A stretch of 64,000 nt of DNA from Terriglobia bacterium (GTDB lineage Bacteria; Acidobacteriota; Terriglobia; Versatilivoradales; Versatilivoraceae): contig OY762429.1 of the NCBI GenBank assembly GCA_963665655.1, positions 2,224,503 through 2,288,502 of the forward strand, given 5' to 3'. The position numbers were made by a program, and so were the translations under genes. Under the pieces are notes generated by a model. The model had not been told where the DNA came from and made no database searches. It saw nothing but the letters and a program-made list of their open reading frames with translations. Positions 7,200 to 24,847 of the stretch are shown here, in pieces. How positions within the stretch are numbered: the stretch's first letter is position 1; each line of letters opens with the position of its first letter.

Positions 7200-7352
7200 T
7201 TCCTCTTTATGAAACTGAGTCTAAAATTCTTAAGGCTAGCGGGTTCGAAAGCTAAGTAGGATTAGTGGGGAGCAACTCCGGTCACTGTCGAACATAGCAC
7301 AGTTTGTCAGCTACAGTCGACCTGGAGGTATCATCCAGTAGCCGGAGTACGC

Positions 7353-8312
7353 ATGGCGCGCGGACCACTTTTTCAAGCAGGCTACAACCCTCAGTTTTCG
7401 GGCCATGAAACCTTTCCACTCCGCTACGGATGGCTGAAAAAGGCATTGGACCGCGTCGTAGAAACCGAACATCAAGCTGACAACCGAGTCACATGCTGGG
7501 GCGGAGACGCTATCGCACGTTTTGGCGTCGGTAAAAATATGGTGGCGTCTATGCGCCATTGGGCCAAGGCAGCCCGAGTAATCATTGAACCCGCAAAAAA
7601 TACGGTTCGGACCACAGCACTCGGCCGCCTACTGTTTGGACGGACGGGAGTCGACCCGTATATGGAGCACCCCGCAACGTTGTGGCTAATCCATTGGCAG
7701 TTGGCGGCCTACGAAGAGAAGACTACATGGTATTGGGCGTTCAACCACTATTCTGCTGTGACCTTCGACCGTGAAGCGGTGATCATAATGCTCAAACGTC
7801 TTGCTAAGGACCGAAATTGGCTGAGAGTTGCCGATACGACAATCAAGAACGATGTTGCGTGTTTCGTTCGCACATACGTCGCGTGGCAACCGTCCAGCAA
7901 GACTGGCCATGATGACGTGCTTGAGTCACCGCTCACAGAATTGGGGCTAATCAAGGCCATCGGCAAAAAGGACGGTTTTCGCTTTGTAAGAGGCCCCAAG
8001 ACGACATTGGGCGATGGTGTATTTACTTATGCCTTGGTCGACTTCTGGTCACGGTATGCACCAAACTCAGCCACATTGTCCTTCGAGGCCATCGCTCATG
8101 CGCCCGGCGGTCCGGGCCGCGTATTCCTTTTAGACGAAAACGATGTCGTCGACCGTCTTGCTGCACTTGATGAGGTTACAGGCGGTACGCTGAGATGGTC
8201 CGAGACTGCCGGTCTGAAGCAGGTTATTCGCACTACCGAAATGGAAGGGGGTTCTGCCCTGTCCTGGGTCTACTGCGATTTCAACACGCCTACCGACATG
8301 GAGCCAATGTGA
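7353..8312 (+). CDS. sspB: SspB-like DUF4007 protein (phosphorothioation nickase component)
   Basis: N-terminal FSGHETFPLRYGWLKK motif typical of DUF4007. It is immediately followed and overlapped by the large ATPase and the PAPS-reductase-like gene in the sspBCD order. Confidence 0.7.
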   Translation: MARGPLFQAGYNPQFSGHETFPLRYGWLKKALDRVVETEHQADNRVTCWGGDAIARFGVGKNMVASMRHWAKAARVIIEPAKNTVRTTALGRLLFGRTGVDPYMEHPATLWLIHWQLAAYEEKTTWYWAFNHYSAVTFDREAVIIMLKRLAKDRNWLRVADTTIKNDVACFVRTYVAWQPSSKTGHDDVLESPLTELGLIKAIGKKDGFRFVRGPKTTLGDGVFTYALVDFWSRYAPNSATLSFEAIAHAPGGPGRVFLLDENDVVDRLAALDEVTGGTLRWSETAGLKQVIRTTEMEGGSALSWVYCDFNTPTDMEPM

Positions 8313-11300: not shown

Positions 11301-11698
11301 AGAGTGTGGAGGGTATAGCCAGTCTTGCCGCAAATAAGCCGGCCGGAGAATGGTTCGATCCCGACCTTGATCGGTGCGCCATAGAGCTCGCCGAAATGGC
11401 CCAAAAATTCCTACGTGCCGAGACGTATGCTCGCGTTAAAGGCCGTCCTGACAAACGGCAGGCGATAGCCGTTGTGATCGCCATGGACGGCCGACCTCAA
11501 CCGCTGTTGGAGGAATTCAACATCGCGGATACGGATCGCACTGCCGTCAAAGATCTAGTTGAGCGTGTCGCTAACACCATCGGACAGACCGCCACCAGCC
11601 AACGCGGAATAATTCTGGCAGCGCTAGCGGAACTCACGACGCGCTATATTCAGACAGCGTCGACTGGGCACAATAAGAAAGAAAGAGCAGCCTCATGA
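8312..11698 (+). CDS. sspC: SspC-like large P-loop ATPase
   Basis: Walker [17 protein letters not shown] and a Walker B-like LVLFIDELGKF. Start chosen at the ATG overlapping the sspB stop (TGATG); the ORF is open from 8195, so the start is uncertain. The 3-prime end overlaps sspD by 4 nt. Confidence 0.7.
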   Translation: MSLNDRVRIARRFLRSIRIDSDLGHVAALEGFVCPQSSSNILLTMARHVSQTGQGAFTWTGPYGSGKSSLVVALSALLNGDTGLQDEAAKIFGQELTRTIRDTLPIGTKGWRILPVVARRDDPVTVIGESVRRTALVSRRPRGGWTESNLIATLTKIASENPETHGGLVLFIDELGKFLEAAARDGSDIYILQQLAEASSRSQGRFLVVGVLHQAFEEYAHRLSYEMRDEWAKIQGRFIDLIVNTVGEEQIDLISRAIESDHHPKKPSTLAATVASFACRDRASDAGRIASILETCWPLHPVVACLLGPISRRRFGQNQRSIFAFLNSSEPHGFRDFLCHAREGELYGPDRLWDYLRANLEPSILASPDGHRWALAAEALERCEAIGADAVHIRLLKTISVIDLFKERSGLVANSALLGSCFPETSANGLERALSQLGTWSFTIFKKFLNAHTIFAGSDFNIDEAVRTALDEIDEFDLKALKSLAGLHPILAKRHYHDTGALRWFDVNIVSVSSLVDFVAKHEPENGVIGQFLLAIPTEGESRDYAEDVCRKATRHSDAWDIIVGISKSFWAIVPLARELFALDSVSNNHPGLAGDSVARREVSARLVTLQTLLEAELRKAFDNALWFQKEHRPKRLRQADLNGIASELADRRFGQSPRLHSELLNRQKPSSNAIAAQNALLRCMVMNEGAPRLGIVGFPAEGGLFASILEATGLYVTEEAIGRYVSPITSTDPCNLAAIWKKAINHVKECANRTVTFSELFEQWSKPPFGVKQGMMPVLAVAFVLSHRDKIAVYRDGIFRAKFDDVDVDYLAKDPTFVQVRWMDLSYVARRLLSGLAQVVRDLDTANQLIHLEPIDVGRGLVAVYERLPKWTKRTMRLSSNALRIRELFKRAHDPNQFLFNDLPETLGEDVSFGDENDLRLVIESVREGLHELVGAYTSMLHRLREIMLAELQVPNISPRSLQELRVRAENIKQLSGDFRLEAFVGRLSQFDGSDESVEGIASLAANKPAGEWFDPDLDRCAIELAEMAQKFLRAETYARVKGRPDKRQAIAVVIAMDGRPQPLLEEFNIADTDRTAVKDLVERVANTIGQTATSQRGIILAALAELTTRYIQTASTGHNKKERAAS

Positions 11699-12534
11699 CC
11701 AAACCTGCTGTGAAGCATGTGCTCGGGCTGTCCGGTGGGCGAGATAGCGCGGCGCTAGCCGTCTACATGCGGCAAAACCATCCCGCAATCGATATCCAGT
11801 TTTTTTTTACGGACACAGGCAAGGAACTGCCCGAAGTGTATGAATTTCTAGGGCGACTTGAAGGTTTTCTTGGTAAACCGATCTTGCGGCTGAATCCTGA
11901 CCGTGACTTCGATTTCTGGCTTAAGCAATACAACCACTTTCTGCCATCGCCGCAAACGCGCTGGTGCACACGGCAGCTTAAACTGCGCCCGTTTGAGCAC
12001 TGGCTTCGCCCATTGCTTGCCAATGGAACGATGATCTACAGTTATGTTGCTATTCGCAGTGACGAGCAGTTCCGTGAAGGGTACTCCTCTAAACATAGCA
12101 ATTTGGTTGTCAAACTGCCGTTCAAGCAGGCCGGGATCGATAAAGCTGGTGTGCTTGAAATCCTAGATGGAGCCGGGCTTGGCCTACCGAATTATTATTC
12201 TTGGAGAACGCGTAGCGGCTGCACTTTTTGTTTTTTCCAGCAGAAGATCGAATGGGTTCGGCTCAAACAGCAGCACCCGGAGGCGTTCGAGGAAGCCAAG
12301 GCGTACGAAAAAAACGCCGTTGAAAACGGTTCACCTTTTACATGGAGCCAAGGTGAATCTCTCCAGCAGCTTGAAAAGCCGGAGAGGATCGTGCAGATTA
12401 GGGCGGATCATGAACGACGTTTGGCCCGCATGCGCTCCAAAGCCAAGCCAAACCCGCTTAGGCCGGATAGCGAGCCTCTAGATATTGACGACTTGTACGG
12501 AAAAGCCAAAGTCTGCCTCGCATGCCACAAGTAG
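11695..12534 (+). CDS. sspD: SspD/DndC-family PAPS-reductase-like ATP pyrophosphatase (PP-loop)
   Basis: PP-loop motif LGLSGGRDSAALAV at the N-terminus, the PAPS reductase fold pattern, cysteine-containing C-terminal motifs (CTFC; CLACHK) and ATGA overlap with sspC. Confidence 0.8.
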   Translation: MTKPAVKHVLGLSGGRDSAALAVYMRQNHPAIDIQFFFTDTGKELPEVYEFLGRLEGFLGKPILRLNPDRDFDFWLKQYNHFLPSPQTRWCTRQLKLRPFEHWLRPLLANGTMIYSYVAIRSDEQFREGYSSKHSNLVVKLPFKQAGIDKAGVLEILDGAGLGLPNYYSWRTRSGCTFCFFQQKIEWVRLKQQHPEAFEEAKAYEKNAVENGSPFTWSQGESLQQLEKPERIVQIRADHERRLARMRSKAKPNPLRPDSEPLDIDDLYGKAKVCLACHK

Positions 12535-12552
12535 CTAAAATATTGACTGAAA

Positions 12553-14028
12553 TCAACTAAGAGCGTGTAGGGACATCAGCCTTGGGTAACGCTTAGCGAT
12601 ATCGGGATGCCGTCGCAGTCGATCTTCAAGATCCCGAGCTTCCCACCATTCGGCTTGAAAGACCTTCTTCCTTCTCATACCGTCCAAATGATCCACAAGT
12701 GAAGAACTGATTCTCGGATGTGCGATCAGGAGAAATCCGTCCGCCTGATGGCGCTCAAGCGTGTCTCTGATGTCCTGAACATCGCTTTTGCCAATCGTCC
12801 GTTGTCGGGATTTCACCTGCGCTATGAAGCGCAAAACTCTTGTTCCTTTGAAACAGACTGCGGCACCACCCTTAGACGTGGAGTCTTTTGCTCCTGTCGA
12901 ATGGGGAGCGGGAACTTTCCTGTCAATCAGAATATCACGTCCGCTATCTCTGTCGTTGACCGTCCCAACCGGTTTCGCTTGAAGGACTCCTGGTTCCCTC
13001 CGAACCAAATCAACACAAAGGTCTTCAAAGTCGCCTGGAGACATTGGTGTCTTCCAGTCAATAATCGAATCCGCAAAAAATACGCTATTTTCCCCGCTTC
13101 GTCGCTCAAGTAGGTTTTTTCTTTCCCGTTCATAAACGACGCGTCCACATTCGCCGCGAATTGCAACAATTGTCTTATCTCCGATGAAGAGACAGTGACT
13201 ATCTAGTGGCATCACAACTACGTTCTCACACCCATCGGCAGTGAGTGAAAACAGTTTGTGCGCCTTCTTGGTTAAAGCGAATGGAATTGCATTCGGTATA
13301 CCATTTGCGAGGATCGCCAATGATTTTTCGCCCTTTACCATCTCGGGTGAATAGGGGCTCAAAGCGCCTCTCAGAAGAGCTAAACGGTTCTTCGGCATCC
13401 GAATGATTGTCACGCCGCGATCATGTGACGCGAAATACATCCAAACCGGAAATGTTCTTTTGCTGATCGTCACATCTTTCGGATTTCTCAGGTACCTTGT
13501 GACAGGAACCACCCATACCGGTTCTTCGGTTTTGTGTACCACGGTCAAATCTGGACGATTTTGCAATCGGCCTTGATCCCACTGGAACACATCGCTTAAG
13601 AGGTGAAAGGCGAATGCGGTCCATGCATTCATGGATTTTCTTGCGGCCTCGAATGTGTCATCCGAGATGTTCCAAGGGCATTGCTCAAATATCACGTAAC
13701 GTGCGCCGATCTCACCTGGAACAAAGCCGTGAGGCTCATCAATTAGCCGCACAGAACCAAGCCCAAATGCGCGTAGCACTCCACCCCAAATCAGCGACAA
13801 GACGTCATGCACGTCGGTCCGGTCGCCATCGAATTGAGCGCCAGATGTGGTGACTACACCCCAAAGCAGTAGCCGTTTCTCACAGTCTTGACCAGCCGGC
13901 AAGTCAAGCATACGAAAGGGTTCGTGTGTTAGACCTGAACATTCAAATACGGGAGGTTTGTATAGTGTCTCTTGACCGCCAACTGACAACGCGGAGGCCG
14001 CCCTTGCAAATATGCTGTCAGCTTCCAT
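12553..14028 (-). CDS. Hypothetical protein with a C-terminal Mrr-like restriction endonuclease (PD-(D/E)xK) domain
   Basis: The C-terminal segment RFIAQVKSRQRTIGKSDVQDI...ADGFLLIAHPRISS resembles the Mrr_cat core. Last gene of the minus-strand operon, abutting the upstream gene. Confidence 0.5.
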   Translation of the reverse strand: MEADSIFARAASALSVGGQETLYKPPVFECSGLTHEPFRMLDLPAGQDCEKRLLLWGVVTTSGAQFDGDRTDVHDVLSLIWGGVLRAFGLGSVRLIDEPHGFVPGEIGARYVIFEQCPWNISDDTFEAARKSMNAWTAFAFHLLSDVFQWDQGRLQNRPDLTVVHKTEEPVWVVPVTRYLRNPKDVTISKRTFPVWMYFASHDRGVTIIRMPKNRLALLRGALSPYSPEMVKGEKSLAILANGIPNAIPFALTKKAHKLFSLTADGCENVVVMPLDSHCLFIGDKTIVAIRGECGRVVYERERKNLLERRSGENSVFFADSIIDWKTPMSPGDFEDLCVDLVRREPGVLQAKPVGTVNDRDSGRDILIDRKVPAPHSTGAKDSTSKGGAAVCFKGTRVLRFIAQVKSRQRTIGKSDVQDIRDTLERHQADGFLLIAHPRISSSLVDHLDGMRRKKVFQAEWWEARDLEDRLRRHPDIAKRYPRLMSLHALS

Positions 14029-15930
14029 CTATTCTCCCTCTGCTGAGAGGATATCGGTGATTTTCATGACGAAAGGCGCCTTGCGGTAATTACTCTTTGC
14101 AGAAATACCTTCTTCGACTCCCTCATTTCGCACGAGGTAAAGGTACGTCCGATTGTCTTTACCCTTTTCCGCATTCCATTTTCCATTCTGTCGCGGAAGT
14201 TCCATCAATCCCCGTTCAAATCGCTCGAAGAAGTCAAGATCGGTCTTCATGGCTGAGAGGCTTTCCTTCGCCGACGTGCGTACATCCTCAAGCGGATAAC
14301 TCTGCATAGTTTCCCTCAACGCATCGCACACGTCTTCTCCAAGCACCAAATGGTCGACTCTCCTTCCCTGTGCGTCTCGACCCACGAAGCAGCTCGCGGT
14401 TTCCATCGATTCAACCGGAACTGAGCGCGTAGTCGCATCAGGGGAAACTACATATAAGGCAATTGAAACCGGAAACGTCGCGGGAGGTTTTGCAGGCTGA
14501 CCAATACGCCCCATATCAGCCAGCAACTTCTGCTGAAGTTCCGTGGCAAAGATCTCACGAATTCGACCTACGCGTACGTAACTGCTACTGTGCTGGAGCC
14601 CCTCGCAAAGTGTTGCAAGAGGGATTGTTTGTCGTTTTTTAAGATGCCACCTGATCCAATGCCTTGACCCATCTTGCGATTTGAAGATCGGCGTCTTGGT
14701 TACCGTAGCTCCATAAGACCAATCTTTCGCCACAAGGGGCATTAGAGTACCAGGCAGAACGAACACATTTTCTGTCTCAGCGCGCGCTAAATCGCACGCG
14801 GGTGTTGCAACGAGAAATACCTCACTTGTCAATTTCCCAGTTTCTGTGTTCTTGCGTCGCAAAACGTCCCCGTATTGAATTGTTGGCACGTCCTGACCGA
14901 CTGAGAGTTCCAACCTTCGGACGTGTTGAAAGATCATGCGATGCACAAGGTCTTGGAGATCAGATGAACCTGCCAAATGCGGAGCAGGGTACTGGCCCAA
15001 CTCAATCTTGTTTAATTCTTGAGCCGCGGATATTGTTCCAACTTGGGCTTCTATCTCGTGCTGTAAGACACGATCTGAAACATCCAAGAGATACTCGCCG
15101 AGCTTTTGCCCTTCGAAATCCAGCAAAAGTGTCCGAATCTGTGCCAAATCAGATAAATCTAGGCGGCGTAGAATTCTTACAAAGTTGTCTCGTGCCTGCT
15201 CCAAACCGTCATTCCACGATTGGACGAATGCAGCAACCCGTTTGGCATCTTCATAATGGTTTGCCAGCCGGGTCAGCAAAGTTTCGAGCCTGCCATCCTT
15301 CGTCAAATCAGCCTTGCTTGCGATCCGAAATGTTGAACCGAGAAGTCCCGCCTTATCACGAAAATCATTGCGCTTCTCCCAGAGCCGAGTGCTCCTTGAC
15401 ATCAATACTACTAGTGGCGGCTTGTGCGCACGATTCGTAACGAGTTGCGAGACACGGGAGACTGCACGGTCCATATCCTGTTCAGACTGATGAAAGCCGA
15501 GGAACAAATCGATGAAGATTAGGTCCGCCTCTCTCGCTCTCTCATCGAACTCCTTCCCCATCGTTGAACAGGTCAAGCCGAAACCTTCAAGGGCCACGAT
15601 AAGTGCCTCTAAGATTTTCCGCTCTGCCTCCTGGGTACTCTCGTAGTCTCTGAATAAATGCTCACGCGCTTCAGTTGGCAGCTTGTCCCGGTATTCCCAC
15701 AAGATACTGATAAACTCCTGAGATCCGATCAGATCGCCCATAGACGTGCGTTCATATCCCGGAAACAGGTTCGAAAGTAACGCGTTTCCGGAAGCGCCCA
15801 GGTCATCAAAGAAATTCGACCAATCGCCCTCGGTGAGTTCGTCAGGACGCGGTATATCGTCGAAGACGTCATCGATAACAACAGCGTTTTTGACAACCCT
15901 CTTTTTCAACAGCTCGCGCAGTTTCTTCAT
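14029..15930 (-). CDS. Hypothetical protein with receiver-domain-like N-terminal motifs
   Basis: N-terminal VVIDDVFDD, a later IFIDLFLG and PLVVLMSRS resemble REC beta1/beta3/beta4 elements, but the spacing is non-canonical. 4-nt overlap with the upstream histidine-kinase-like gene. The C-terminal 400 aa has no recognisable domain. Confidence 0.4.
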   Translation of the reverse strand: MKKLRELLKKRVVKNAVVIDDVFDDIPRPDELTEGDWSNFFDDLGASGNALLSNLFPGYERTSMGDLIGSQEFISILWEYRDKLPTEAREHLFRDYESTQEAERKILEALIVALEGFGLTCSTMGKEFDERAREADLIFIDLFLGFHQSEQDMDRAVSRVSQLVTNRAHKPPLVVLMSRSTRLWEKRNDFRDKAGLLGSTFRIASKADLTKDGRLETLLTRLANHYEDAKRVAAFVQSWNDGLEQARDNFVRILRRLDLSDLAQIRTLLLDFEGQKLGEYLLDVSDRVLQHEIEAQVGTISAAQELNKIELGQYPAPHLAGSSDLQDLVHRMIFQHVRRLELSVGQDVPTIQYGDVLRRKNTETGKLTSEVFLVATPACDLARAETENVFVLPGTLMPLVAKDWSYGATVTKTPIFKSQDGSRHWIRWHLKKRQTIPLATLCEGLQHSSSYVRVGRIREIFATELQQKLLADMGRIGQPAKPPATFPVSIALYVVSPDATTRSVPVESMETASCFVGRDAQGRRVDHLVLGEDVCDALRETMQSYPLEDVRTSAKESLSAMKTDLDFFERFERGLMELPRQNGKWNAEKGKDNRTYLYLVRNEGVEEGISAKSNYRKAPFVMKITDILSAEGE

Positions 15931-18356
15931 GAGACAACGACCTCGTCGGGCAGTTGCAGAATGAAACGATGGAGGCGGCCTGTTTCGGGATTGAACTCGT
16001 CCTGCAGTGTCAGGCTTCCGCCGTGGTATTCGGCACAGTCGCGGGCGATGTAGAGACCGAGACCCCTGCGTTTGGATTTTTCTTTCAGCGAAAAGAACGC
16101 CCGAAAGACCTTCTCTCGGTTCTCCTTCGCGACACCACGGCCATTATCTTCATAGTTGATCGTGAGGGGATCATCTTCCATCGCAATGGTGATAAACGGC
16201 TGGAAGCCCGGCTGGTGCTGTTGGCGAAGGTCCAGCCAATAAAGCGAGTTCGATATCAAGTTTTCGATTATCTGCACGATCATTCCCTTGACGGCGCGAA
16301 TACGAACAGCACGCTCAGGCACGATAACCTTCAGCTTCACATCATGACGTGCAAATTGCAGCTCGTGACCGCTCAAAATATCTCCAATCAGGCTACCCAA
16401 ATTGAACGTTTCCTTTCGTTGACGGCCCGAAACACTAAGCGGATCAAGAACACGAAGGCGCTTACTTACCGACTTCATCTCCGACCGCAACGAATTCAGC
16501 AATCCGTCTATCTGGGCCGGAACGTCTTCCTCACGTAAGGCCTCAAGTGCAGCAAGCGCATTTTCCGTCGATCGGGCTAGTTCATGGGCCACGACTTCGA
16601 CTAGCAGCCCAACACCCGCCATCTGCATCATCTGCCGATTCTCGCTCTCGACCTCGGCAATCCGCCTTTCAGCACGAGTGAAGAATTCTTTTATTTCAAA
16701 GAAGGTGTGCTGCAATTCATCAACAATACTCGCCGAGACTGGAGCTATGTGCCTTATTTTCTTTAGTGCCACGCTTGCCCTTTTTTCGAGGCTAGACACA
16801 TCCGTCTTGGCTTCCGTCATATCGATGGGCTGGCCTTTGTAACGCCGTTGCACGTCCTTCAAAAACTCACGGAGGTGGTATTGAATGGCAAATTGCAGCA
16901 GGCCAATGAACGCTTGCTGTTCGGGGCAAACACGCAAGCCTTCGCGGTTTGTCTGGTCAGTGAGTGGCGGGTTGCCTAGCCGTGAAATCTTAACACGGCC
17001 GCAGAATTGTGCTTTGTTGAGGAGGTACCCCATACTACCGAGCGCACGCCGGTCCAAGCCTAGCCAATCGTCGTCGTCGTCTCCGTAAGGCAAAATCCGG
17101 AATCCATCACGGAATAGTAGGATCCCGGACCAGCGCTTTTGCAGTTCTCGCACAACGTTCCGATTTCCAATGCTGTCGATGGCTCCCAAGCGCCGCCGAT
17201 TAAACCAATACGCCTCGAATTCGAATTCACCCAAATCGTCTAGTGCTGACGGCGGGATTTCTCTCGATGTGCCGGTAATCGCCCCTTCAAGGTCGGGCGG
17301 GGTGAATACCCGTTTTTCAACTTCACGCGGGTGATCGAATCCCAGATTCAAAGCTTCGTAGCTGCATTCCAGAGTTGGGCCGGAATCATTGCAGACATAA
17401 CGTCCCTTTACCGCTGCATGTCGATGCGCCAAGAGAAGATGATCCATGCGAGCTATAGAAACGCGCGCACCATTCCAAAATAAAGCAATTCGGGGTCTCC
17501 GCTTGGCATCAGCGAACGGATCGGTAAGCCGCGCAAAGTCATGCTCACCTAAGTATTTGACTCGCTCATATGTCCAGTCCGCTCCTAGAGCACCGATGAT
17601 CAACCGTGTGCCGCTCCAGTCTGGCTCCGGCTTCGCCGAACCGCACTCAGGTATGATGTCGATCTCATCAATCATCGCTTCTAGGTCGCCAAAAGCAGAC
17701 CAGTCAATTTTGAGCAAATTTAGGTATTTGTCCTGTTTCTCTGCCGTTTCGACCGTAAGCTTGTCGCCTAGGCGCATGGCGGAGAGTCGTCCGATCCCCT
17801 TTTCACCTAGATAGGGTGCGCGCTGTTTTTCTGCGTTAGGACTCGCGAGCGCGGCGTCTATCACGCGTTTCCGAGAAGCTGTTCCCACTACGAGATAGTT
17901 ATCGATCAAATCCTGATGCGACATCCCCGTGCCCCTGTCGGACACGATAATTCGATTTTCAACGGTGTACGCATTGTCAAGGGCCTGAACAAGAGATGCT
18001 GGATCTTCGGCTCTGTCGATCGCCCTGCGGAAACGATTCAGTGAGCTCTGTGGGGCAGACGGATTGAGAACATGCTCAACATTCACCTTCAGACCGTTGA
18101 TATCAACCGATCCGTCAGTTGCCCTCTGGCGGATCCTCAAATAGTCATTCCGCCGTAGGACGATTTCAAAATGAATTTCCACACCGTTCGTAGACTTAGC
18201 GTCAAACGCGTTCTTGATCAGCTCATAAAATGCAATAATATCCGAACTGATAAGTTCAGCCCCGAGTTCCAGAATTGTCCGGGCGCAAATCTTGAACAAC
18301 CTGTTTACCTCCCTTTGTTGTTCGGCTTGCTGGTCAACGGTCAGGCGATGATGCAA
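15927..18356 (-). CDS. Cytoplasmic GHKL ATPase - histidine kinase fusion protein
   Basis: N-terminal GHKL domain (N-box FYELIKNAFDA, G1 VSDRGTGMS, G2 GEKGIGRLS). Central H-box VVAHELARSTENALAAL. C-terminal HK catalytic domain (N-box ENLISNSLYW, G1 EDNGRGV, G2 GLGLYIARDCAEYHGGSL). No TM segments. Confidence 0.65.
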   Translation of the reverse strand: MHHRLTVDQQAEQQREVNRLFKICARTILELGAELISSDIIAFYELIKNAFDAKSTNGVEIHFEIVLRRNDYLRIRQRATDGSVDINGLKVNVEHVLNPSAPQSSLNRFRRAIDRAEDPASLVQALDNAYTVENRIIVSDRGTGMSHQDLIDNYLVVGTASRKRVIDAALASPNAEKQRAPYLGEKGIGRLSAMRLGDKLTVETAEKQDKYLNLLKIDWSAFGDLEAMIDEIDIIPECGSAKPEPDWSGTRLIIGALGADWTYERVKYLGEHDFARLTDPFADAKRRPRIALFWNGARVSIARMDHLLLAHRHAAVKGRYVCNDSGPTLECSYEALNLGFDHPREVEKRVFTPPDLEGAITGTSREIPPSALDDLGEFEFEAYWFNRRRLGAIDSIGNRNVVRELQKRWSGILLFRDGFRILPYGDDDDDWLGLDRRALGSMGYLLNKAQFCGRVKISRLGNPPLTDQTNREGLRVCPEQQAFIGLLQFAIQYHLREFLKDVQRRYKGQPIDMTEAKTDVSSLEKRASVALKKIRHIAPVSASIVDELQHTFFEIKEFFTRAERRIAEVESENRQMMQMAGVGLLVEVVAHELARSTENALAALEALREEDVPAQIDGLLNSLRSEMKSVSKRLRVLDPLSVSGRQRKETFNLGSLIGDILSGHELQFARHDVKLKVIVPERAVRIRAVKGMIVQIIENLISNSLYWLDLRQQHQPGFQPFITIAMEDDPLTINYEDNGRGVAKENREKVFRAFFSLKEKSKRRGLGLYIARDCAEYHGGSLTLQDEFNPETGRLHRFILQLPDEVVVS

Positions 18357-18412
18357 AGAAACGCGCCCGACTCCGATTTCCCCCAGCTACCAATCTGATC
18401 ATCCGTGCCGTC

Positions 18413-18877
18413 CTATGCTACCTTTGCATTCCTCAAAAGCGCGTCAATACAATCCGAGAGGTTCCAGATCGGCTCCGCATCACCGTCATTGAGCATTTCA
18501 ATGATCTTGGGTAGCCCAGCTACGGCAAGTCCGCTGGCGAGCACCATCATCCTTCTCGGTTCCGATACGATCTGCACATCGCCAGTCTTTCCGATCGCGA
18601 TCAGCATAAGGGTATGCACGCGCCACGGATCGCTGCCGAATATCGATCCGTCGATGATCTTCTTCGTTTTGAATTTAGAGGGGTCTCTAGGTTCCAGACC
18701 AAGCCGCGCTGCGACGCAGACAGACAGGAACCAGAGATCGACCATGCGCGGAAACGGACTCTGATCGATGATCGCATCGGCGCTCCTTTGGCAGTAACGA
18801 GTAAACGCCTCGTGGAATTCCTCTGGGACGTTAATGTCGATCGCCTGAAACGGATTGAAATAACGGTCCGCCATCAC
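18413..18877 (-). CDS. Hypothetical protein (154 aa)
   Basis: Tightly packed between the SMC-like ATPase (4-nt overlap) and the HK-like gene, with island-like low GC. No recognisable motif. Confidence 0.45.
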   Translation of the reverse strand: MMADRYFNPFQAIDINVPEEFHEAFTRYCQRSADAIIDQSPFPRMVDLWFLSVCVAARLGLEPRDPSKFKTKKIIDGSIFGSDPWRVHTLMLIAIGKTGDVQIVSEPRRMMVLASGLAVAGLPKIIEMLNDGDAEPIWNLSDCIDALLRNAKVA

Positions 18878-21030
18878 CTGTCTCCTATGATTGACGCTAT
18901 GTCTCTGTCGACCTGCGCATCGTCATGGCGTTGACAAAGTTGGCATTCCTTGCGGTGATTGCATTCACAGCGCAGAACCTTACGTTCAGCGACGCCCGGA
19001 TCGTTGACGAGCATTTTCGGGTAATGCGTCGTATTGGTCAGCGTGAAAACTACACCCGCCGTCTCATCGATGATGTCCTCGCACCCGGCGATTTCATCGT
19101 GAGTGAGAAAGAGCACGAGCTGTGTACTTTCGCGTACTGCCTTTCGCAGTATCGAGCGCTTGACGTACCCGCTTGTCATCCCGAGCGGCGTGTCGATGAC
19201 ATTGGGCGCTTCGACCTCGCTGACCCTCGTTAGCGCAAGGATGAAAGCCAGTGTCAGTGCGCGTCGCGATGCCCCGTTGAGGTCACGGTCCGGGTTGAGC
19301 ATCCTGTTGTTCGGCCCGTAGACGATTATGTCGAATTCCCGGCTGATTTCGGCGTGCCGGATAATCGCGCCCTGTTGCGGGTCCGCGCCGATCATTTCGA
19401 GAAAGATGTAATTCATCCGTTCGCTGACCTTGGCGAGTTCCTCATTCGCCATCCGCCTATACGCGCTCATCAATACCTTCATCACATCCTGAGTGACTTC
19501 AAGTTCGGCCAGTATGCGTGCGCCTTTCTTCTGCTCGCGCAGCAGTCGGTCGCGTGTGTTCTCAAGGATTTCGCGTTCACGGTGGAGCCCTGTGAGCTGT
19601 GTTTCGATTGCAGCACGCTTTGCCAGACACCGGTCGCGCTGGTCCTTGTATTGCCGCAGGGTTACCCGCAGGCCTTGGATGTCTGTGTTCGGCAATGCGT
19701 CGAGTTGTAGTTCCAGCCCTCGGTATTTGCGTCCCGCTTCATCGCGAACGATCTGGATGCCATCCCGACGTTCGACGACCTTCTTGTACTCTTCTAGCCA
19801 TTCGCTAGTCGCCGCATTGCCAGCACCTTGCAACGGCTTAGCACTGTAAAACAGGTCAGTAATAATCTCTTGAATTTCGTCGGCGCGCTGGCTGTCATCG
19901 ATCAGCTTCTGAATATAGGCGCGACGCTTGTCACCTTGCAGGTCTCCCGGTTCAAGCGTTTCACCACAAATGCAGAGTTCGGCTGAGAGGCGCTCTTGCA
20001 AGACCGGGATCGTCGTGTTAGGGATCTTGCCCTGATCGTGTAGTTCTTCGAGTTTCTCGTAGGCCTTGCCGAGCAGGGGCGCAAGCAGATCGGTCGCGAT
20101 TGAGCGGCTACGGAAAAGGGCCGAATGTTCCTTGTTGGCTGTAGCGAGCTGGTAATCGAGTTGCCCTATATCTTGCCTGGTGGTTTCAAGCTCCTTCCGT
20201 AGCTTCACCTTGTCACCTTTTTGAAGGGCGGCTGCGATTTTGCGGTCGGTTTCGTTCACCTTCTCTTCGAATGCTGCGAATTGCTGTTTCACATCCTCGA
20301 GATCGTCTTCCAGTTTGTTCCAGTCCTCATTAATTTCTTCGAGGCGTGAAGCGGTGCTGTTCAGCTCGCTGTCACTTCCGACCTGTTTCGCGTTCCTGTT
20401 CACTTCTGCTGCAGATTTGCGGACATGCTTAATCGCATCGCCGATCACACCGACGCCGAGAAGGGAACGGATAGCGCGCTGAACGCGCTCGCGCTTGGTC
20501 GAAAGTGCTGCATCGGCTTCGATGAAGCTGAGCGCGCGGTCGCCATCCGTAAAGAAGACCTCACGCAGTTCCGGCGGTAGTTCGTCGTTGATAAGGGATT
20601 CGGGTGCAACGATGGGAGCTGCGCCGCTGTCGTTCAGCGCAAACAGCTTCACCGTTGATGCTGAACGGTAAGATCTGCTTTCCACGTCTTCGAAAGCGGA
20701 ACGAACGAGGCGATAGTGCCGCCGCGTTTTGCGTAGTTTACCGGCCAATCTCCGGTAAGTCTTTAACTCGAACTCCAACGTCGCAGTGATTGGAACCCGT
20801 TTGCGCTCATTCGCATCCCAGTCGATAGGATGCAAGCGAAAACCATCGCCCTTGCCCGGCAAGGCAACGTCGCCGTAGAGCGCCCATTGCAGCGCATGAA
20901 GGATCGTCGTCTTACCTGATTCGTTCGCCGCACGTATGATCGTGAGGTTCCTCTCGGCATCGCTGGCGAATTCAAGCTCCAGATTCCGGAGCAGCCGGAA
21001 ATTTTCAAATGAGGCGCGAAGTAGCTTCAT
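18874..21030 (-). CDS. SMC/RecF/SbcC-like AAA ATPase with a long coiled-coil (DndD-like architecture)
   Basis: N-terminal Walker A NESGKTTILHALQWALYGD, a long heptad-rich middle region, a C-terminal signature/Walker B region (LVLFLTHDE) and terminal Cys cluster CECNHRKECQLC. Confidence 0.6.
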   Translation of the reverse strand: MKLLRASFENFRLLRNLELEFASDAERNLTIIRAANESGKTTILHALQWALYGDVALPGKGDGFRLHPIDWDANERKRVPITATLEFELKTYRRLAGKLRKTRRHYRLVRSAFEDVESRSYRSASTVKLFALNDSGAAPIVAPESLINDELPPELREVFFTDGDRALSFIEADAALSTKRERVQRAIRSLLGVGVIGDAIKHVRKSAAEVNRNAKQVGSDSELNSTASRLEEINEDWNKLEDDLEDVKQQFAAFEEKVNETDRKIAAALQKGDKVKLRKELETTRQDIGQLDYQLATANKEHSALFRSRSIATDLLAPLLGKAYEKLEELHDQGKIPNTTIPVLQERLSAELCICGETLEPGDLQGDKRRAYIQKLIDDSQRADEIQEIITDLFYSAKPLQGAGNAATSEWLEEYKKVVERRDGIQIVRDEAGRKYRGLELQLDALPNTDIQGLRVTLRQYKDQRDRCLAKRAAIETQLTGLHREREILENTRDRLLREQKKGARILAELEVTQDVMKVLMSAYRRMANEELAKVSERMNYIFLEMIGADPQQGAIIRHAEISREFDIIVYGPNNRMLNPDRDLNGASRRALTLAFILALTRVSEVEAPNVIDTPLGMTSGYVKRSILRKAVRESTQLVLFLTHDEIAGCEDIIDETAGVVFTLTNTTHYPKMLVNDPGVAERKVLRCECNHRKECQLCQRHDDAQVDRDIASIIGDR

Positions 21031-21041
21031 GTGTCCAATTC

Positions 21042-21272
21042 CTACTTACCCGCATTTTGGGCTCGCTGGTCCGCCAGGAAGTGCGCAGCGGCGTTGCATT
21101 TGTCATTGATTTTCTTCTGGATAGTCGTCGCAGAAACGCGATGACCTCGTTCGTATTCAAAAATGTCTGAAATCACGTCGATAATCTCTTCCCTGTAGCC
21201 ATTGCAGCGTTCTTCGATCTCTGCGCATTCCTCAAGGATGATCGAGATTATCTTCTTGTCATTCAGTGGCAT
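21042..21272 (-). CDS. Small hypothetical protein (76 aa)
   Basis: Fits exactly between the helicase and the ATPase genes, with gaps of 18 and 12 nt. No recognisable domain. Confidence 0.4.
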   Translation of the reverse strand: MPLNDKKIISIILEECAEIEERCNGYREEIIDVISDIFEYERGHRVSATTIQKKINDKCNAAAHFLADQRAQNAGK

Positions 21273-21289
21273 CTTGCAATCCTCCAGCC

Positions 21290-23542
21290 CTACAAGTAGG
21301 CAGCATCCACCATCTTGTCAATTGTTGCCAACGGCCCGTCCGGACGTCCAGCATTGCCAGCAAGCCGCGCGAATTCCTGTGCGCGGCGCAACTCGGAGCG
21401 CACGAGGCTACGTGCATCGGGGTCGAGCCCGTCTTCCATCTTGGGTGGTAACGCCAGTAAGTCATGAATGACACTAAACGTCTTTCCGATCGCACTGCAG
21501 GTTCGCAGTAATCGTCCGCGCCGCTGCACCCATTGCCGCTCCACAGTAGTGCTCGCGAGAATGAACGCCTTGCATATTTGCGGAATGTTCACGCCTTCAT
21601 CGAGTACGCGCTTGGCCGTCAGAACCTGAATCTCGCCGTCTTGGAAAGAGCCAATAATTCGTTTTGTCTGGTCTCTGCTCGCGGTTTCTTTCGCTGTTAG
21701 CTGATGGAACAAAATGTTCTTGTCCCGTAGCAGTCGGTTCACATTGTCGAGCTGTTCTGGTCCTTTATCCGAAGCATACACAAGAGTATGCCGCAACCCG
21801 CTGGCATCCTTTTCTTCAAGCAGGGACTTCAGCATTGCCACTTTGCCTGAGGCAGTTTCCAGTAGCGCCCGCCGATCGCGTAGCAGCTTGGCGAGGTACT
21901 CGTCTGGCTTGCCGTCCTTTTCGCGCCAAGCGTTCTGCTTGATCTTACCTGTCATAAAGAACCACTGGTCCATTTCACTTTCAGTCAGATAGACCGGGTG
22001 CAAGTAGTAGTCGTATTCGACAAGGCAGCGCCCGATTGCTTCTTCAAGCGTAAAGCGAAAAACTACCGGACCAAAAAATCCTAACAGCGCTTCCGTTCCC
22101 TTTTCGTCATATTGGCGGCTCGGTGTTGCTGACAGACCGATCCTATGCTCGAAAAACTCCGGCGGTCCTCCGGTGAATGAAACGCGCCCGAGATTGTGAG
22201 CTTCATCTGCGATTAGCAGCCTCGTGCACTCGAATCCATCTACAACATCGAGAAATTCTGGTGTGCACAGAGTATCGTGGCTGACGACGACTGCCTCGAC
22301 CTGCGACAGACCAGTGCGCAAGCGCCGTTTGATTTTGTGAAGCTCTCTCGCACGGTTGTTAGCGCCACCTGCCGTCGTAAGATTGATTGGTTTCAGTCCG
22401 AAGGGAACGATTTCATCGCACCACTGTTCGATCAAGGGTACATAGGGCGCAGCAATGACAATCAGAAGGGTATTGCACCTTTGATAAAGGCGGTGTGCAG
22501 CGATCATCGAGGTGATGGTTTTCCCAGAGCCAGTCGCCATCTCCAGGATGCCGCGAAATCCTGCCTTGCACCAAGCATTGACCGCCTTGCCCTGGTGTTC
22601 AAACGGACCGTCTTCGTATCGCAGAAATCTCGGTATCGCAAAGTCTTTCTTCAGTGCGGGAACGGACCCGTAAGATTCGGGGGGTTCCGCAACCCTCGTG
22701 GCGCGACAGTAGAGCGTGCGAAGTTCGTCTTCGGTCGGTGGGGTCTCCGCGCTGTAGGTACGCAGCAGGCGCAGCTTCACGGCCTCCGGCATCGCGATTA
22801 CTATGCAATTATCATCCCTGTTCTCCCACAAGCCTCCGAATTTATAGCTCAGCTTGTCGGTAATGTAGCGCTGGTTCGGGTCCTGCCAAGAACGCGAGAT
22901 TGCTATTTGTTCTATGTTTTTGCGAATACCAGCATAGGTTACATTGCTCGATCCGTGAGCCGCGACGATATCGGTACCATTTTCGAACAACCAAACCTTC
23001 GGATGAAAGAGCGCTTCTTTCATCAGGGCAACCTTGATTTCGATACGATGCTCACGTACTAGCCAGGTCAAACATTTCAACGTGTGGCGCTGCAGCAGAT
23101 CTTCCGTGACTGTCAGCTCTTTCAAAATCCTATCGGCGACTGTTTCCGGGGAGTGTAAACCGTCCCTGATGGCGGCCTGGTCTTCGGTCCGTAGCACTGG
23201 ACTGATGATCAGCCTGAAGCTACTCTCCGAACAGGCAATATAGGTTGCAAGGCCAGGAGCAAGCGAGGCTAGCACTTCACTTGAGAAAAAACCAACCATA
23301 CACGCAACCCTTTCCGCTGCCTGGAAGCTGGGAATCAACACTTCTTCGGCGAGCGGATCGCCCGGGAGTATGTAAAGTGGTCTGGCTTCGTCCAGCGACT
23401 GCAAACTCCTCACTTGTGTCAATGTGTTCGGGTCTCGCCGCACTGGCGGTTCATTTGTCATATGAATTCCCTTCATTCGTCGTTGTCGAATTGACCGACT
23501 CGATCGCGCGTAATGAAGTGCCGGTTGCAATGCCGGCACCAT
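21290..23542 (-). CDS. PLD-like (HKD-variant) nuclease domain fused to an SF2 DEAH-box helicase
   Basis: N-terminal HPKVWLFE...AAHGSSN resembles an HxK...GSxN PLD motif. Helicase motif I EMATGSGKT, motif II LLIADEAHNLG and a C-terminal QRRGRLLR (motif VI). The start is uncertain: alternative Mets at 23476 and 23461. Confidence 0.65.
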   Translation of the reverse strand: MVPALQPALHYARSSRSIRQRRMKGIHMTNEPPVRRDPNTLTQVRSLQSLDEARPLYILPGDPLAEEVLIPSFQAAERVACMVGFFSSEVLASLAPGLATYIACSESSFRLIISPVLRTEDQAAIRDGLHSPETVADRILKELTVTEDLLQRHTLKCLTWLVREHRIEIKVALMKEALFHPKVWLFENGTDIVAAHGSSNVTYAGIRKNIEQIAISRSWQDPNQRYITDKLSYKFGGLWENRDDNCIVIAMPEAVKLRLLRTYSAETPPTEDELRTLYCRATRVAEPPESYGSVPALKKDFAIPRFLRYEDGPFEHQGKAVNAWCKAGFRGILEMATGSGKTITSMIAAHRLYQRCNTLLIVIAAPYVPLIEQWCDEIVPFGLKPINLTTAGGANNRARELHKIKRRLRTGLSQVEAVVVSHDTLCTPEFLDVVDGFECTRLLIADEAHNLGRVSFTGGPPEFFEHRIGLSATPSRQYDEKGTEALLGFFGPVVFRFTLEEAIGRCLVEYDYYLHPVYLTESEMDQWFFMTGKIKQNAWREKDGKPDEYLAKLLRDRRALLETASGKVAMLKSLLEEKDASGLRHTLVYASDKGPEQLDNVNRLLRDKNILFHQLTAKETASRDQTKRIIGSFQDGEIQVLTAKRVLDEGVNIPQICKAFILASTTVERQWVQRRGRLLRTCSAIGKTFSVIHDLLALPPKMEDGLDPDARSLVRSELRRAQEFARLAGNAGRPDGPLATIDKMVDAAYL

Positions 23543-23799
23543 ACCAGGTAATGAATTCCCATAAAGCTCGCCAGATCAATCAACCCACAAATTGGTTAAG
23601 CGCTTCCATGTTCAAACCGCTTGGGGACGTGCTTAACTGTCTCGCTAGTTTCAAAAAAAGAGTGTTGACTCCTATGAAAGTCATCGCCTACGGCGATTGC
23701 TACGCACAACCCAAGTTGGGGCGGATGCTCCGCAAAAGGGGGGTTAACGTTTTGTTTGAGGGCATGGACGGGGGGCACCACCGCTGTGGTTCCACTAAA

Positions 23800-24513: not shown

Positions 24514-24847
24514 AATGGGATCAGGAGGCTACGAACAACCTTGAGTCCCATCTCAGCAATGAACTTTGCAGATGTTGCTGCCTTCCAACCGACTGTCATG
24601 GAGTTGCTAAGTTCAATGGTCAAGCTGGAATAGCCCATAATATGGGTCCGCGTTTCTACAGAAACACCACTCGCATGAAAGTGAAACGATTCAGAAGCAA
24701 TTTATAACCCCTGACACACACTATTTCGCACACTTCCAAGAAAACATCCTGGCTGAGATCCCATAGGTCGTGAGTTTTCTCGTTCAGGATAAGTGATAAA
24801 TCTGGCACCCATGGTTTGTTCGCCCCACTTCAGGTACAGACTTCACC

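What the first reader, a model, noticed from the sequence alone, without database searches (positions are those of the whole stretch)
18874..23542. PLD-like nuclease-SF2 helicase fusion followed by an SMC/DndD-like coiled-coil ATPase, with two small interposed ORFs
The 750-aa protein pairs a single HKD-variant motif (HPKVWLFE...GSSN) with DEAH helicase motifs (GSGKT; DEAH; QRRGR), reminiscent of type III Res / DISARM DrmC / Mokosh-type effectors. The 718-aa protein has the RecF/SbcC/DndD-type N-terminal Walker A, a long coiled coil and a terminal Cys cluster (CECNHRKECQLC) that could bind zinc. The 76-aa and 154-aa proteins are wedged between them with no spacing, which suggests they are obligate subunits.
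Basis: partly seen in the sequence, partly recalled or inferred. Interest (0 to 1): 0.6.

Follow-up and report, generated by a model that had tools for sequence, protein, structure and literature searches.

The report
Ssp-linked PbeABCD phosphorothioate defence cassette
The four genes are a copy of the already described PbeABCD anti-virus cassette, but here, and in almost every related locus, it sits beside the SspABCD DNA-sulfur-marking genes instead of the Dnd genes it was first described with, which may explain some "orphan" Ssp systems.

Summary
The genes are real, but they are a known cassette. The 750-aa protein matches PADLOC PbeA (E=3.6e-191): a single HKD nuclease motif plus an SF2 DEAH helicase. 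The 718-aa protein matches PbeC (8e-51).

The 76-aa ORF fits PbeB and the 153-aa ORF fits PbeD. PbeD lies downstream of the ATPase, not between the two large genes, and almost entirely outside the given coordinates. Both small genes are strongly conserved (468 and 1106 homologues), and A-B-C-D order held in 26/26 informative loci. This is PbeABCD (Xiong 2019), also called the CxC-ABC-ATPase/DndE/HKD-helicase system (Rakesh 2024).

Not found in the literature I could search: this clade is linked to SspABCD rather than DndCDEA. That holds in 32/36 informative loci, and the other four are cut off on one side. One plasmid carries a single sspABCD-pbeABCD operon. The window is a 19-kb low-GC island holding SspABCD, PbeABCD and a separate kinase/receiver-like pair with an Mrr-type nuclease.

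Verdict: known cassette, new modification partner, modest interest.

The parts
21290..23542 (-). PbeA: single-HKD (PLD-like) nuclease domain fused to an SF2 DEAH helicase. The probable true start is M28 at 23461.
   Evidence: PADLOC PbeA PDLC02707 E=3.6e-191, residues 62-731. Pfam ResIII/DEAD/Helicase_C plus weak PLDc_2. TIGR04095 dnd_restrict_1 scores 360 bits, below its 600 cutoff. Motifs are invariant in 34/34 homologues. The N-terminus is not conserved.
21042..21272 (-). PbeB: 76-aa small subunit between PbeA and PbeC.
   Evidence: No Pfam, PADLOC or NCBIfam hit. It has 468 homologues, and the top 120 are 73-86% identical. It is present in 26/26 loci with enough upstream sequence, and is 35% identical (E=2e-14) in a plasmid cassette whose PbeC is only 40% identical. 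The type PbeB is 66 aa (PMC6459918).
18874..21030 (-). PbeC: CxC zinc-hook ABC ATPase (sister of DndD) with a clade-specific C-terminal CxCx5CxxC cluster.
   Evidence: PADLOC PbeC 7.9e-51, with many further PbeC models. DndD TIGR03185 scores only 97.7 bits against a cutoff of 245.85. CxC at 353/355 is invariant in 42/42 and the C-terminal four Cys in 41/41. The cluster is present in the Ssp-linked plasmid homologue and absent from haloarchaeal and Lactiplantibacillus homologues.
18413..18874 (-). PbeD: 153-aa protein predicted to bind DNA (DndE-like by literature). Its start overlaps the PbeC stop (TGATG).
6027..7199 (-). SspA: cysteine desulfurase of the modification module.
   Evidence: PADLOC SspA 5.8e-122. 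TIGR03235 DndA scores 352 bits, below its 480-bit cutoff.
7353..8312 (+). SspB (DUF4007).
   Evidence: PADLOC SspB 2e-107. Pfam DUF4007 2.2e-86.
8312..11698 (+). SspC (BrxC-like ORC/Cdc6-type ATPase). The ORF list starts at 8195, but the family alignment starts near M40 (8312).
   Evidence: PADLOC SspC E=0, 1321 bits.
11695..12534 (+). SspD (PAPS-reductase-like sulfur transferase), convergent with the Pbe-containing gene string.
   Evidence: PADLOC SspD 5.9e-135. Pfam PAPS_reduct.
15927..18356 (-). Accessory module, gene 1: paraMORC-like GHKL domain + HEF_HK + HATPase_c histidine-kinase-like protein. It starts 56 nt after PbeD.
   Evidence: Pfam HATPase_c_3 (131-218), HEF_HK (582-641) and HATPase_c (693-804). 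H-box-like AHELARS at ~591. This is the 'group 1' architecture of PMC8011034. It is present directly after PbeD in 13/35 loci, and follows SspABCD with no Pbe in L069.
14029..15930 (-). Accessory module, gene 2: 633-aa protein with an N-terminal receiver-like domain and an uncharacterised beta-rich C-terminal domain.
   Evidence: No Pfam, PADLOC or NCBIfam hit. 731 homologues, all unnamed. AF2 pLDDT 78.7. D20/D21, D141 and S178 are invariant and K206 nearly so; they sit at the ends of the strands taken as beta1, beta3, beta4 and beta5 of a receiver fold. Best Foldseek hits are AmiR (E=0.01, prob 0.98) and PorX. It always accompanies the 809-aa gene.
12553..14028 (-). Accessory module, variable third gene: 491-aa protein with a C-terminal Mrr-type restriction-endonuclease domain.
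   Evidence: Pfam Mrr_cat 2.8e-5, above its cutoff. Found in only 2 other loci. The slot holds a 273-aa, 59-aa or 977-aa AAA_16-TPR protein, or nothing, elsewhere.

Best explanation
The four genes are a PbeABCD cassette, also described as the CxC-ABC-ATPase / DndE-like / HKD-SF2-helicase / small-protein system. This copy belongs to a clade that is genetically coupled to the SspABCD single-strand DNA phosphorothioation module rather than to DndCDEA. Together they form a modification-plus-exclusion defence island.

Proposed working, all of it inferred from the anatomy and from published work on relatives:
1. SspABCD puts phosphorothioate marks on host DNA.
2. PbeC dimerises through its CxC zinc hook. 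Together with the PbeD DNA-binding subunit it uses ATP to load on, loop or scan DNA and read the mark status.
3. On unmarked invader DNA it engages PbeA. The SF2 motor of PbeA translocates, and its single HKD domain (which would need dimerisation) nicks or cleaves DNA or blocks replication.
4. PbeB is a small helical adaptor or regulator of the complex.

Shown here: family identity, intact catalytic motifs, invariant gene order, conservation of both small genes, and near-universal linkage to Ssp genes.

Inferred: every biochemical step, and dependence on phosphorothioate.
For: Identity:
- PADLOC PbeA 3.6e-191 and PbeC 7.9e-51.
- The CxC hook and HKD/helicase motifs are invariant.
- PbeB and PbeD sizes (76 and 153 aa) match the type system (66 and 152 aa), where all four genes were essential (PMC6459918).
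- The domain re-annotation in PMC10853773 matches gene for gene.
- The PbeD profile detects the 4th gene of haloarchaeal cassettes.

Coupling to Ssp:
- SspA-D are all present in the same low-GC island.
- 26/26 loci keep A-B-C-D, and 32/36 informative loci carry SspB/C/D within 10 kb. The 4 exceptions are each unsampled on one side.
- The link holds in three arrangements and with two very different Ssp lineages (SspC ~28% versus 51-79% identity to the window's).
- Plasmid CP099618 has one co-directional sspA-B-C-D-pbeA-B-C-D string with overlapping junctions.
- PbeC and SspC identities co-vary across loci (Spearman 0.78, n=27, not phylogeny-corrected).
- No SspE or SspFGH is present in the island.
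- 84% of sspBCD loci have no known restriction partner (PMC8092258).
Against: - There is no functional data for any Ssp-linked cassette.
- Defence genes cluster in islands anyway, and the loci were sampled through one conserved protein (PbeD), so they are related rather than independent.
- Rakesh et al. dispute that Pbe is a phosphorothioate-dependent restriction module at all, and note that it often occurs without Dnd.
- In the type system no DNA cleavage was seen, which sits awkwardly with an intact HKD nuclease.
- PbeD's DndE-like fold is only weakly supported here (Foldseek E~7; no Pfam DndE hit in 85 members).
- I could search only open-access papers, and the Krishnan 2020 ABC-ATPase paper was not available. 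An earlier mention of Ssp linkage cannot be excluded.
Confidence: 0.72

Rival explanations
1. PbeABCD here is an autonomous defence system that does not depend on phosphorothioate. It merely shares a defence island with SspABCD. Ssp is either an orphan epigenetic module or is served by the neighbouring kinase/receiver/Mrr genes instead.
For: Rakesh et al. find that CxC-ABC systems frequently occur without Dnd genes and question the restriction-partner model. Xiong et al. found 58% of PbeAC without dndCD. The kinase/receiver pair can follow SspABCD without Pbe (L069), so Ssp has other candidate partners. Defence islands commonly mix systems.
Against: The linkage is too consistent: 32/36 loci, with no sampled counter-example. 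It persists across three gene arrangements and two divergent Ssp lineages. It includes an overlapping-junction single string in CP099618.
Confidence: 0.15
2. Abortive-infection reading. PbeB is a labile inhibitor. When a phage factor removes it, PbeA attacks the cell's own DNA. PbeCD only positions the complex, and the Ssp marks are not the discriminator.
For: Proposed for the family by Rakesh et al. on the basis of the small protein. No viral DNA degradation was seen in the type system.
Against: In this clade PbeB is not rapidly evolving or disordered-looking. It is 73-86% identical among the 120 best of its 468 homologues, with conserved blocks along most of its length. In the type system, PT-modified virus escaped and a catalytically dead DndA abolished protection, which argues for mark-based self/non-self discrimination.
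Confidence: 0.08
3. PbeCD acts on the modification side. As a DndD/DndE-like scanning pair it gives the Ssp sulfur-transfer enzymes a second target specificity, with PbeA as an attached nuclease.
For: PbeC is the sister clade of DndD, and the literature calls PbeD a DndE cognate. Rakesh et al. propose that CxC-ABC/DndE pairs may trigger or signal modification (section 24 excerpt).
Against: SspB/SspC already supply DNA recognition and the ATPase for Ssp. In the type system DndCDEA modified DNA without Pbe, and Pbe deletions affected only defence.
Confidence: 0.04
4. One reading: a new nuclease-helicase plus SMC-like ATPase system related to type III Res, DISARM DrmC or Mokosh effectors.
For: Generic Pfam ResIII and PLDc_2 similarity.
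Against: The best matches by far are PbeA and PbeC. No DrmC or Mokosh model appears among the 25 best PADLOC hits shown. There is no methyltransferase in the island. The cassette was published in 2019 and re-annotated in 2024.
Confidence: 0.01

Closest known systems
DndCDEA-PbeABCD of Haloterrigena jeotgali A29 (Xiong et al. 2019, PMC6459918)
   Same: The same four genes in the same order, with matching sizes (PbeB 66 vs 76 aa, PbeD 152 vs 153 aa). PbeA and PbeC hit the PADLOC models built for this system. The cassette is adjacent to a phosphorothioation module that includes a cysteine desulfurase.
   Different: The modification partner is SspABCD (single-strand PT, BrxC-like ATPase, DUF4007), not DndCDEA. 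The host is bacterial (Acidobacteriota). PbeC carries an extra conserved C-terminal Cys4 cluster that the archaeal relatives I could read lack. Function is untested here.
CxC ABC-ATPase / DndE / HKD-SF2 / small-protein systems (Rakesh, Aravind, Krishnan 2024, PMC10853773)
   Same: All four components fit this definition: a CxC zinc hook at the coiled-coil apex, an HKD+SF2 fusion, a small protein, and a ~150-aa partner after the ATPase.
   Different: That paper describes links to Dnd genes and to cytosine methylases. In the text I read it does not mention links to Ssp or to HEF_HK kinases. Here the 'rapidly evolving, disordered' small protein is well conserved. The DndE relationship of PbeD could not be confirmed by sequence and only weakly by fold.
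SspABCD-SspE and SspABCD-SspFGH (Xiong 2020; Wang 2021, PMC8092258)
   Same: The same kind of modification module, and the same logic of an adjacent restriction-type partner. Two partners can coexist with one SspABCD.
   Different: The partner genes are unrelated. SspE is DUF262/DUF1524, and SspFGH has a Walker-A protein and an FtsK-like protein. None of these is in this island.
HEF_HK / Response_reg_2 two-component-like pairs next to R-M systems (Bellieny-Rabelo 2021, PMC8011034) - for the neighbouring 809-aa/633-aa genes
   Same: The 809-aa protein has the HATPase_c_3 + HEF_HK + HATPase_c architecture, is soluble, and is adjacent to a receiver-like partner and to restriction genes.
   Different: The partner does not match Pfam Response_reg_2. 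Its HEF_HK hit (22.6 bits) is just below the 24.1-bit cutoff. The context is phosphorothioation rather than C5-methylase R-M.

Membership tests
PbeABCD / CxC-ABC-ATPase system | PbeA: an HKD endonuclease domain fused to an SF2 helicase. | tested here: met
   PADLOC PbeA 3.6e-191 over residues 62-731. HxK...GSxN, GSGKT, DEAH and QxxGR are present and invariant in 34/34 homologues.
PbeABCD / CxC-ABC-ATPase system | [quoted passage not shown] | tested here: met
   PADLOC PbeC 7.9e-51. C353-I-C355 lies at the mid-point of the 718-aa protein and is invariant in 42/42. Zinc binding itself was not tested.
PbeABCD / CxC-ABC-ATPase system | PbeB: a small protein gene between the helicase and ATPase genes. 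| tested here: met
   The 76-aa ORF is in that position and is present in 26/26 loci. It has 468 homologues. Sequence homology to the type PbeB could not be tested because that sequence is not held.
PbeABCD / CxC-ABC-ATPase system | PbeD: a ~150-aa DndE-cognate encoded directly after the ATPase. | tested here: inconclusive
DndCDEA-PbeABCD (as originally defined) | The cassette adjoins dndC/dndD double-strand phosphorothioation genes. | tested here: not met
   The island has SspA, B, C, D instead. DndC models hit SspD only weakly (E~1e-4), and no dndD or dndE is present other than PbeC/PbeD themselves. The same holds in 32/36 related loci.
DndCDEA-PbeABCD (as originally defined) | PT-dependent block of virus DNA replication, with all four genes required. 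| not testable with these tools
   Needs phage challenge and PT chemistry.
DndD (modification ATPase) | Reaches the TIGR03185 equivalog score and lacks the CxC hook. | tested here: not met
   97.7 bits against a cutoff of 245.85. The CxC is present.
TIGR04095 dnd_restrict_1 | Reaches the curated score of 600 bits. | tested here: not met
   359.9 bits over residues 315-742. PbeA is a relative of this helicase-domain family, not an equivalog.
SspABCD modification module | All four of: cysteine desulfurase, DUF4007 protein, BrxC-like ATPase and PAPS-reductase-like protein. | tested here: met
   PADLOC SspA 5.8e-122, SspB 2e-107, SspC E=0, SspD 5.9e-135. All ORFs are full length.
   None is among the 25 best PADLOC hits shown for the 750-aa protein. 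No methyltransferase was found among the island ORFs scanned.
HEF_HK / Response_reg_2 pair (neighbouring genes) | HATPase_c_3 + HEF_HK + HATPase_c kinase next to a Response_reg_2 protein. | tested here: inconclusive
   The kinase architecture is present, though HEF_HK scores 22.6 bits against a 24.1 cutoff. The partner has no Response_reg_2 hit even at E<=10. It does have a receiver-like fold and the DD/D/S/K residue pattern.

The most novel reading that the evidence does not exclude
A distinct PbeABCD clade is the missing restriction partner for many 'orphan' SspABCD systems. It is marked by a conserved PbeB and a C-terminal Cys4 module on PbeC, and would read single-strand phosphorothioate marks. 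In about a third of loci it works with a second Ssp-linked module: a paraMORC-type histidine-kinase-like protein that phosphorylates a receiver-domain protein to control a swappable effector (Mrr nuclease, STAND ATPase). That would be a three-layer phosphorothioate defence island in which a phosphorelay gates a back-up effector.
Probability: 0.3. Interest if true: 0.6.

Novelty: new variant of a known kind. Interest (0 to 1): 0.4.

Why it matters
The four-gene cassette itself adds nothing new. It is PbeABCD, and existing PADLOC models recognise its two large proteins.

What may matter is the context. About 84% of sspBCD loci have no known restriction partner (PMC8092258), and 58% of PbeAC were called "solitary" in 2019, before Ssp was described. 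A clade of PbeABCD that is almost always next to SspABCD would account for part of both puzzles. It would also give a compact system for experiments: the 8-gene string on plasmid CP099618.

Such experiments could address two open disputes. One is whether Pbe really reads phosphorothioate. The other is whether its intact HKD nuclease cuts DNA.

The neighbouring kinase/receiver pair is a second, uncharacterised candidate Ssp partner.

Tried and rejected
Searches that led nowhere:
- The genome-contig scan with PbeC returned only one 1.3-kb fragment.
- Exact look-ups of the window's own PbeD and PbeC found no contig on record.
- Cluster look-ups gave no names for the island proteins.
- Pfam and PADLOC scans of 85 diverse PbeD homologues found nothing.
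- A profile search of PDB sequences with the PbeD family found no DndE.
- Foldseek against PDB gave no significant hit for PbeD.
- The promoter/terminator scan was at or near the shuffled-sequence background (promoter-like sites below it, terminator-like sites ~1.5 sd above) and did not define operon ends.
- There is no tRNA at the island edges.
- There are no copies in IMG/VR viral contigs.
- Krishnan et al. 2020 (PMC7544218) is not held.
- Literature searches for Pbe together with Ssp, or for an HKD-helicase partner of SspABCD, found no paper describing the link.

Ideas rejected:
- The 809/633/491-aa genes as SspFGH. SspF/H are Walker-A and FtsK-like, whereas these are GHKL/HK, receiver-like and Mrr proteins.
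- The four non-Ssp loci as counter-examples. Each lacks sequence on one side of the cassette.
- A simple empty-site comparison. Close relatives carry different genes after tsaB-PEMT, so only the right island edge (~24843) could be fixed.
Full report
**What is in the sequence**

The window contains a low-GC stretch (about 0.49-0.56 GC, roughly 5.9-24.8 kb) flanked by 0.60-0.69 GC sequence. Its right edge is near 24843, where similarity to a closely related genome resumes. The flanking genes are rimI on one side (86.0 bits, just under the 86.4 cutoff) and a PEMT-like gene, tsaB and mutS on the other. The host is probably an Acidobacteriota bacterium, judged from the name carried by the MutS cluster.

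The minus strand carries a tightly packed string of genes:

| Gene | Coordinates | Size |
|---|---|---|
| PbeA | 23542-21290 | 750 aa |
| PbeB | 21272-21042 | 76 aa |
| PbeC | 21030-18874 | 718 aa |
| PbeD | 18874-18413 | 153 aa |
| kinase-like | 18356-15927 | 809 aa |
| receiver-like | 15930-14029 | 633 aa |
| Mrr-like | 14028-12553 | 491 aa |

The gaps between the first four genes are 17 nt, 11 nt and a 1-nt TGATG overlap.

Convergent with this string, on the plus strand, are SspB, SspC and SspD. SspA is divergent from SspB.

**Checking the observation**

- In the 750-aa protein: H180-x-K182...GSSN200, GSGKT338, DEAH446 and QRRGR673.
- In the 718-aa protein: Walker A ANESGKT and C688-x-C690-x5-C696-xx-C699.

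These residues are invariant in the 34 and 41-42 homologues I extracted from related loci.

Two points need correcting:
- Only the 76-aa ORF lies between the two large genes. The 153/154-aa ORF follows the ATPase and lies almost entirely outside the stated coordinates.

The first ~45 residues of the 750-aa ORF are not conserved. The start is probably M28, which is preceded by an AAGGGA Shine-Dalgarno-like sequence.

**Identity**

The 750-aa protein matches PbeA in the PADLOC library at E=3.6e-191 over almost its full length. The 718-aa protein matches many PbeC models, the best at 7.9e-51. Two related curated families are only partly matched:
- The DndD equivalog scores 97.7 bits against a cutoff of 245.85.
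- TIGR04095 ("DNA phosphorothioation system restriction enzyme") scores 360 bits against a cutoff of 600.

PbeABCD was described by Xiong et al. 2019 (PMC6459918) as a four-gene operon next to dndCDEA in a haloarchaeon.
- PbeB is 66 aa and PbeD is 152 aa.
- All four genes are required for defence.
- Protection depends on phosphorothioate (PT) modification.
- No viral DNA cleavage was detected.

Rakesh, Aravind and Krishnan 2024 (PMC10853773) re-annotated the same cassette:
- PbeA is an HKD endoDNase plus SF2 helicase.
- PbeB is a small protein.
- PbeC is a "CxC" zinc-hook ABC ATPase, sister to DndD.
- PbeD is a DndE cognate.

The window's genes fit this description gene for gene, including the CxC hook.

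**The small ORFs**

They do not.
- PbeD has 1106 homologues, and the best 120 are at least 81% identical. It has 235 cluster representatives down to about 27% identity.
- PbeB has 468 homologues, and the best 120 are 73-86% identical.

I fetched 62 metagenome loci with a PbeD alignment and mapped all the window proteins onto them, together with the genome locus L002. Every one of the 26 loci with enough upstream sequence has PbeA, PbeB and PbeC in the same order. A plasmid cassette whose PbeC is only 40% identical still has recognisable PbeB (35%, E=2e-14) and PbeD (37%, E=8e-29).

The PbeD family profile also detects the fourth-gene proteins of haloarchaeal cassettes (E=2e-9 and 5e-5).

PbeD modelled with high confidence (pLDDT 94.8). 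The model shows two strand-helix-helix units followed by helices. Foldseek found nothing significant. DndE chains (5wtu) and an F-plasmid relaxosome subunit were among the top hits, with target-normalised TM 0.54-0.57. No Pfam DndE hit appeared in 85 family members. The DndE assignment therefore rests mainly on the literature.

**What is different here**

The island's modification genes are SspA, B, C and D, with PADLOC E-values of 5.8e-122, 2e-107, 0 and 5.9e-135. They are not DndCDEA.

This is not peculiar to this genome. Of the 36 related loci with enough flanking sequence, 32 carry SspB, SspC or SspD within 10 kb. Each of the four exceptions is cut off on one side of the cassette or disrupted by a transposase.

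The association appears in three layouts:

| Layout | Loci |
|---|---|
| Convergent | 27 |
| Ssp upstream, same strand | 9 |
| Ssp downstream, same strand | 3 |

It also involves two very different Ssp lineages. SspC is ~28% identical to the window's in one lineage and 51-79% in the other.

Plasmid CP099618 (Sphingomonadaceae) carries sspA-B-C-D-pbeA-B-C-D as one co-directional string with overlapping junctions.

PbeC and SspC identities to the window co-vary across loci (Spearman 0.78, n=27). This is uncorrected for shared ancestry and includes near-duplicate contigs. Xiong et al. reported 0.107 for DndCD against PbeAC.

The C-terminal Cys4 cluster of PbeC is conserved throughout the Ssp-linked set, including the plasmid. 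It is absent from the haloarchaeal and Lactiplantibacillus relatives I could read.

I found no paper in the searchable library that links Pbe to Ssp.
- Wang et al. 2021 report that 84% of sspBCD loci lack SspE or SspFGH and suggest further partners exist.
- Xiong et al. 2019 called 58% of PbeAC "solitary", which was before Ssp was described.

**Mechanism, with its status**

Shown here: family identity, intact motifs, fixed gene order, conservation, and linkage to Ssp.

Inferred from the anatomy and from the two published views of the family:
1. SspABCD marks host DNA.
2. The zinc-hook ABC ATPase PbeC, with the PbeD DNA-binding subunit, loads on and scans DNA using ATP.
3. Unmarked DNA is handed to PbeA, whose SF2 motor translocates. 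Its single HKD domain would have to dimerise to nick or cleave DNA or arrest replication.
4. PbeB is an adaptor or regulator.

The rivals are an autonomous, PT-independent system; an abortive-infection mode with PbeB as inhibitor; and a role for PbeCD on the modification side. I rate the coupled-system reading at about 0.7. It is limited by the complete lack of experiments on Ssp-linked cassettes and by the related, non-independent sampling.

**The neighbouring genes**

The 809-aa protein has a paraMORC-type GHKL domain, an HEF_HK domain with an AHELARS H-box, and a histidine-kinase ATPase domain. This is the "group 1" architecture of Bellieny-Rabelo et al. 2021, who found such kinases next to restriction-modification genes.

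The 633-aa protein has no family hit. Its model (pLDDT 78.7) has an N-terminal five-stranded alpha/beta domain. D20/D21, D141 and S178 are invariant and K206 is nearly invariant; they sit at the strand ends where a receiver domain has them. The best fold hits are AmiR and PorX (E=0.01-0.05).

The pair follows PbeD in 13 of 35 loci. It always occurs as a pair. In one genome it follows SspABCD with no Pbe cassette at all. I therefore treat it as a separate Ssp-associated module.

The third gene of this module is swappable: the Mrr-type 491-aa protein here, and a 273-aa, 59-aa or 977-aa AAA_16-TPR protein, or nothing, elsewhere.

**Verdict**

The finding is a correct reading of domains, but the cassette is a published system. 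The gene order was mis-stated for one ORF, and the family's hallmark CxC hook was missed.

The instance is a variant in one respect that I could test. Its modification partner is Ssp rather than Dnd, consistently across a clade, and PbeC has a clade-specific Cys4 tail. That is of modest interest and is directly testable. The four-gene cassette alone would rate as ordinary.

Noticed in passing
window 14029-18356 (-): A histidine-kinase-like protein (paraMORC GHKL + HEF_HK + HATPase_c, 809 aa) and a 633-aa protein with a receiver-like N-terminal domain but no family hit. The pair follows PbeD in 13/35 related loci. In locus L069 it follows SspABCD with no Pbe cassette. It may be an independent, undescribed Ssp partner module.
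   Followed up: partly
window 12553-14028 (-): A 491-aa protein with a C-terminal Mrr-type endonuclease domain sits in a variable slot after the 633-aa gene. Other loci have a 273-aa, 59-aa or 977-aa AAA_16-TPR protein there, or nothing. The pattern suggests a swappable effector.
   Followed up: partly
window 18916-18970 (PbeC residues 688-699): The C-terminal CxCx5CxxC cluster, plus C650, is conserved in 41/41 Ssp-linked PbeC homologues and in a 40%-identical plasmid homologue. It is absent from the haloarchaeal and Lactiplantibacillus PbeC-like proteins. The PADLOC PbeC profiles end before it. Its function is unknown.
   Followed up: partly
window ~5900-24843: The whole Ssp/Pbe region is a ~19-kb low-GC island between rimI and the PEMT-like gene/tsaB/mutS. 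It has no tRNA, integrase or flanking repeat that I looked for. Close relatives (93% DNA identity in mutS-tsaB) carry unrelated genes (pentapeptide, PhoD-like) at this site.
   Followed up: partly
window 23800-24513 (-): A 237-aa ORF lies just upstream of PbeA inside the island. It has no hit in Pfam, NCBIfam or PADLOC and no counterpart in any of the related loci.
   Followed up: partly
L070 (CP099618.1, 1367-12465 of the locus): A Sphingomonadaceae plasmid carries sspA-sspB-sspC-sspD-pbeA-pbeB-pbeC-pbeD as one co-directional string with overlapping gene junctions. An ATP-binding protein with a weak mad8 hit follows it. This is the most compact natural construct for testing the coupling.
   Followed up: partly
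L071 (NZ_CP082247.1), L072, L073: Distant cassettes (PbeC ~21-24% identical) in haloarchaeal and Lactiplantibacillus plantarum plasmids have a shorter helicase without the HKD domain. They keep the small-protein / ATPase / ~155-aa-protein order. The Natrinema copy lies near a tRNA-guanine transglycosylase gene. The L. plantarum ATPase has CxxC instead of CxC.
   Followed up: no
L027, L033, L039, L046, L048-L050: In nine loci the Ssp genes lie upstream of PbeA on the same strand and belong to a very divergent lineage (SspC ~28%, SspD 39-47% identical to the window's). The Pbe proteins in these loci stay 49-73% identical. One Pbe clade is therefore paired with two Ssp lineages.
   Followed up: partly
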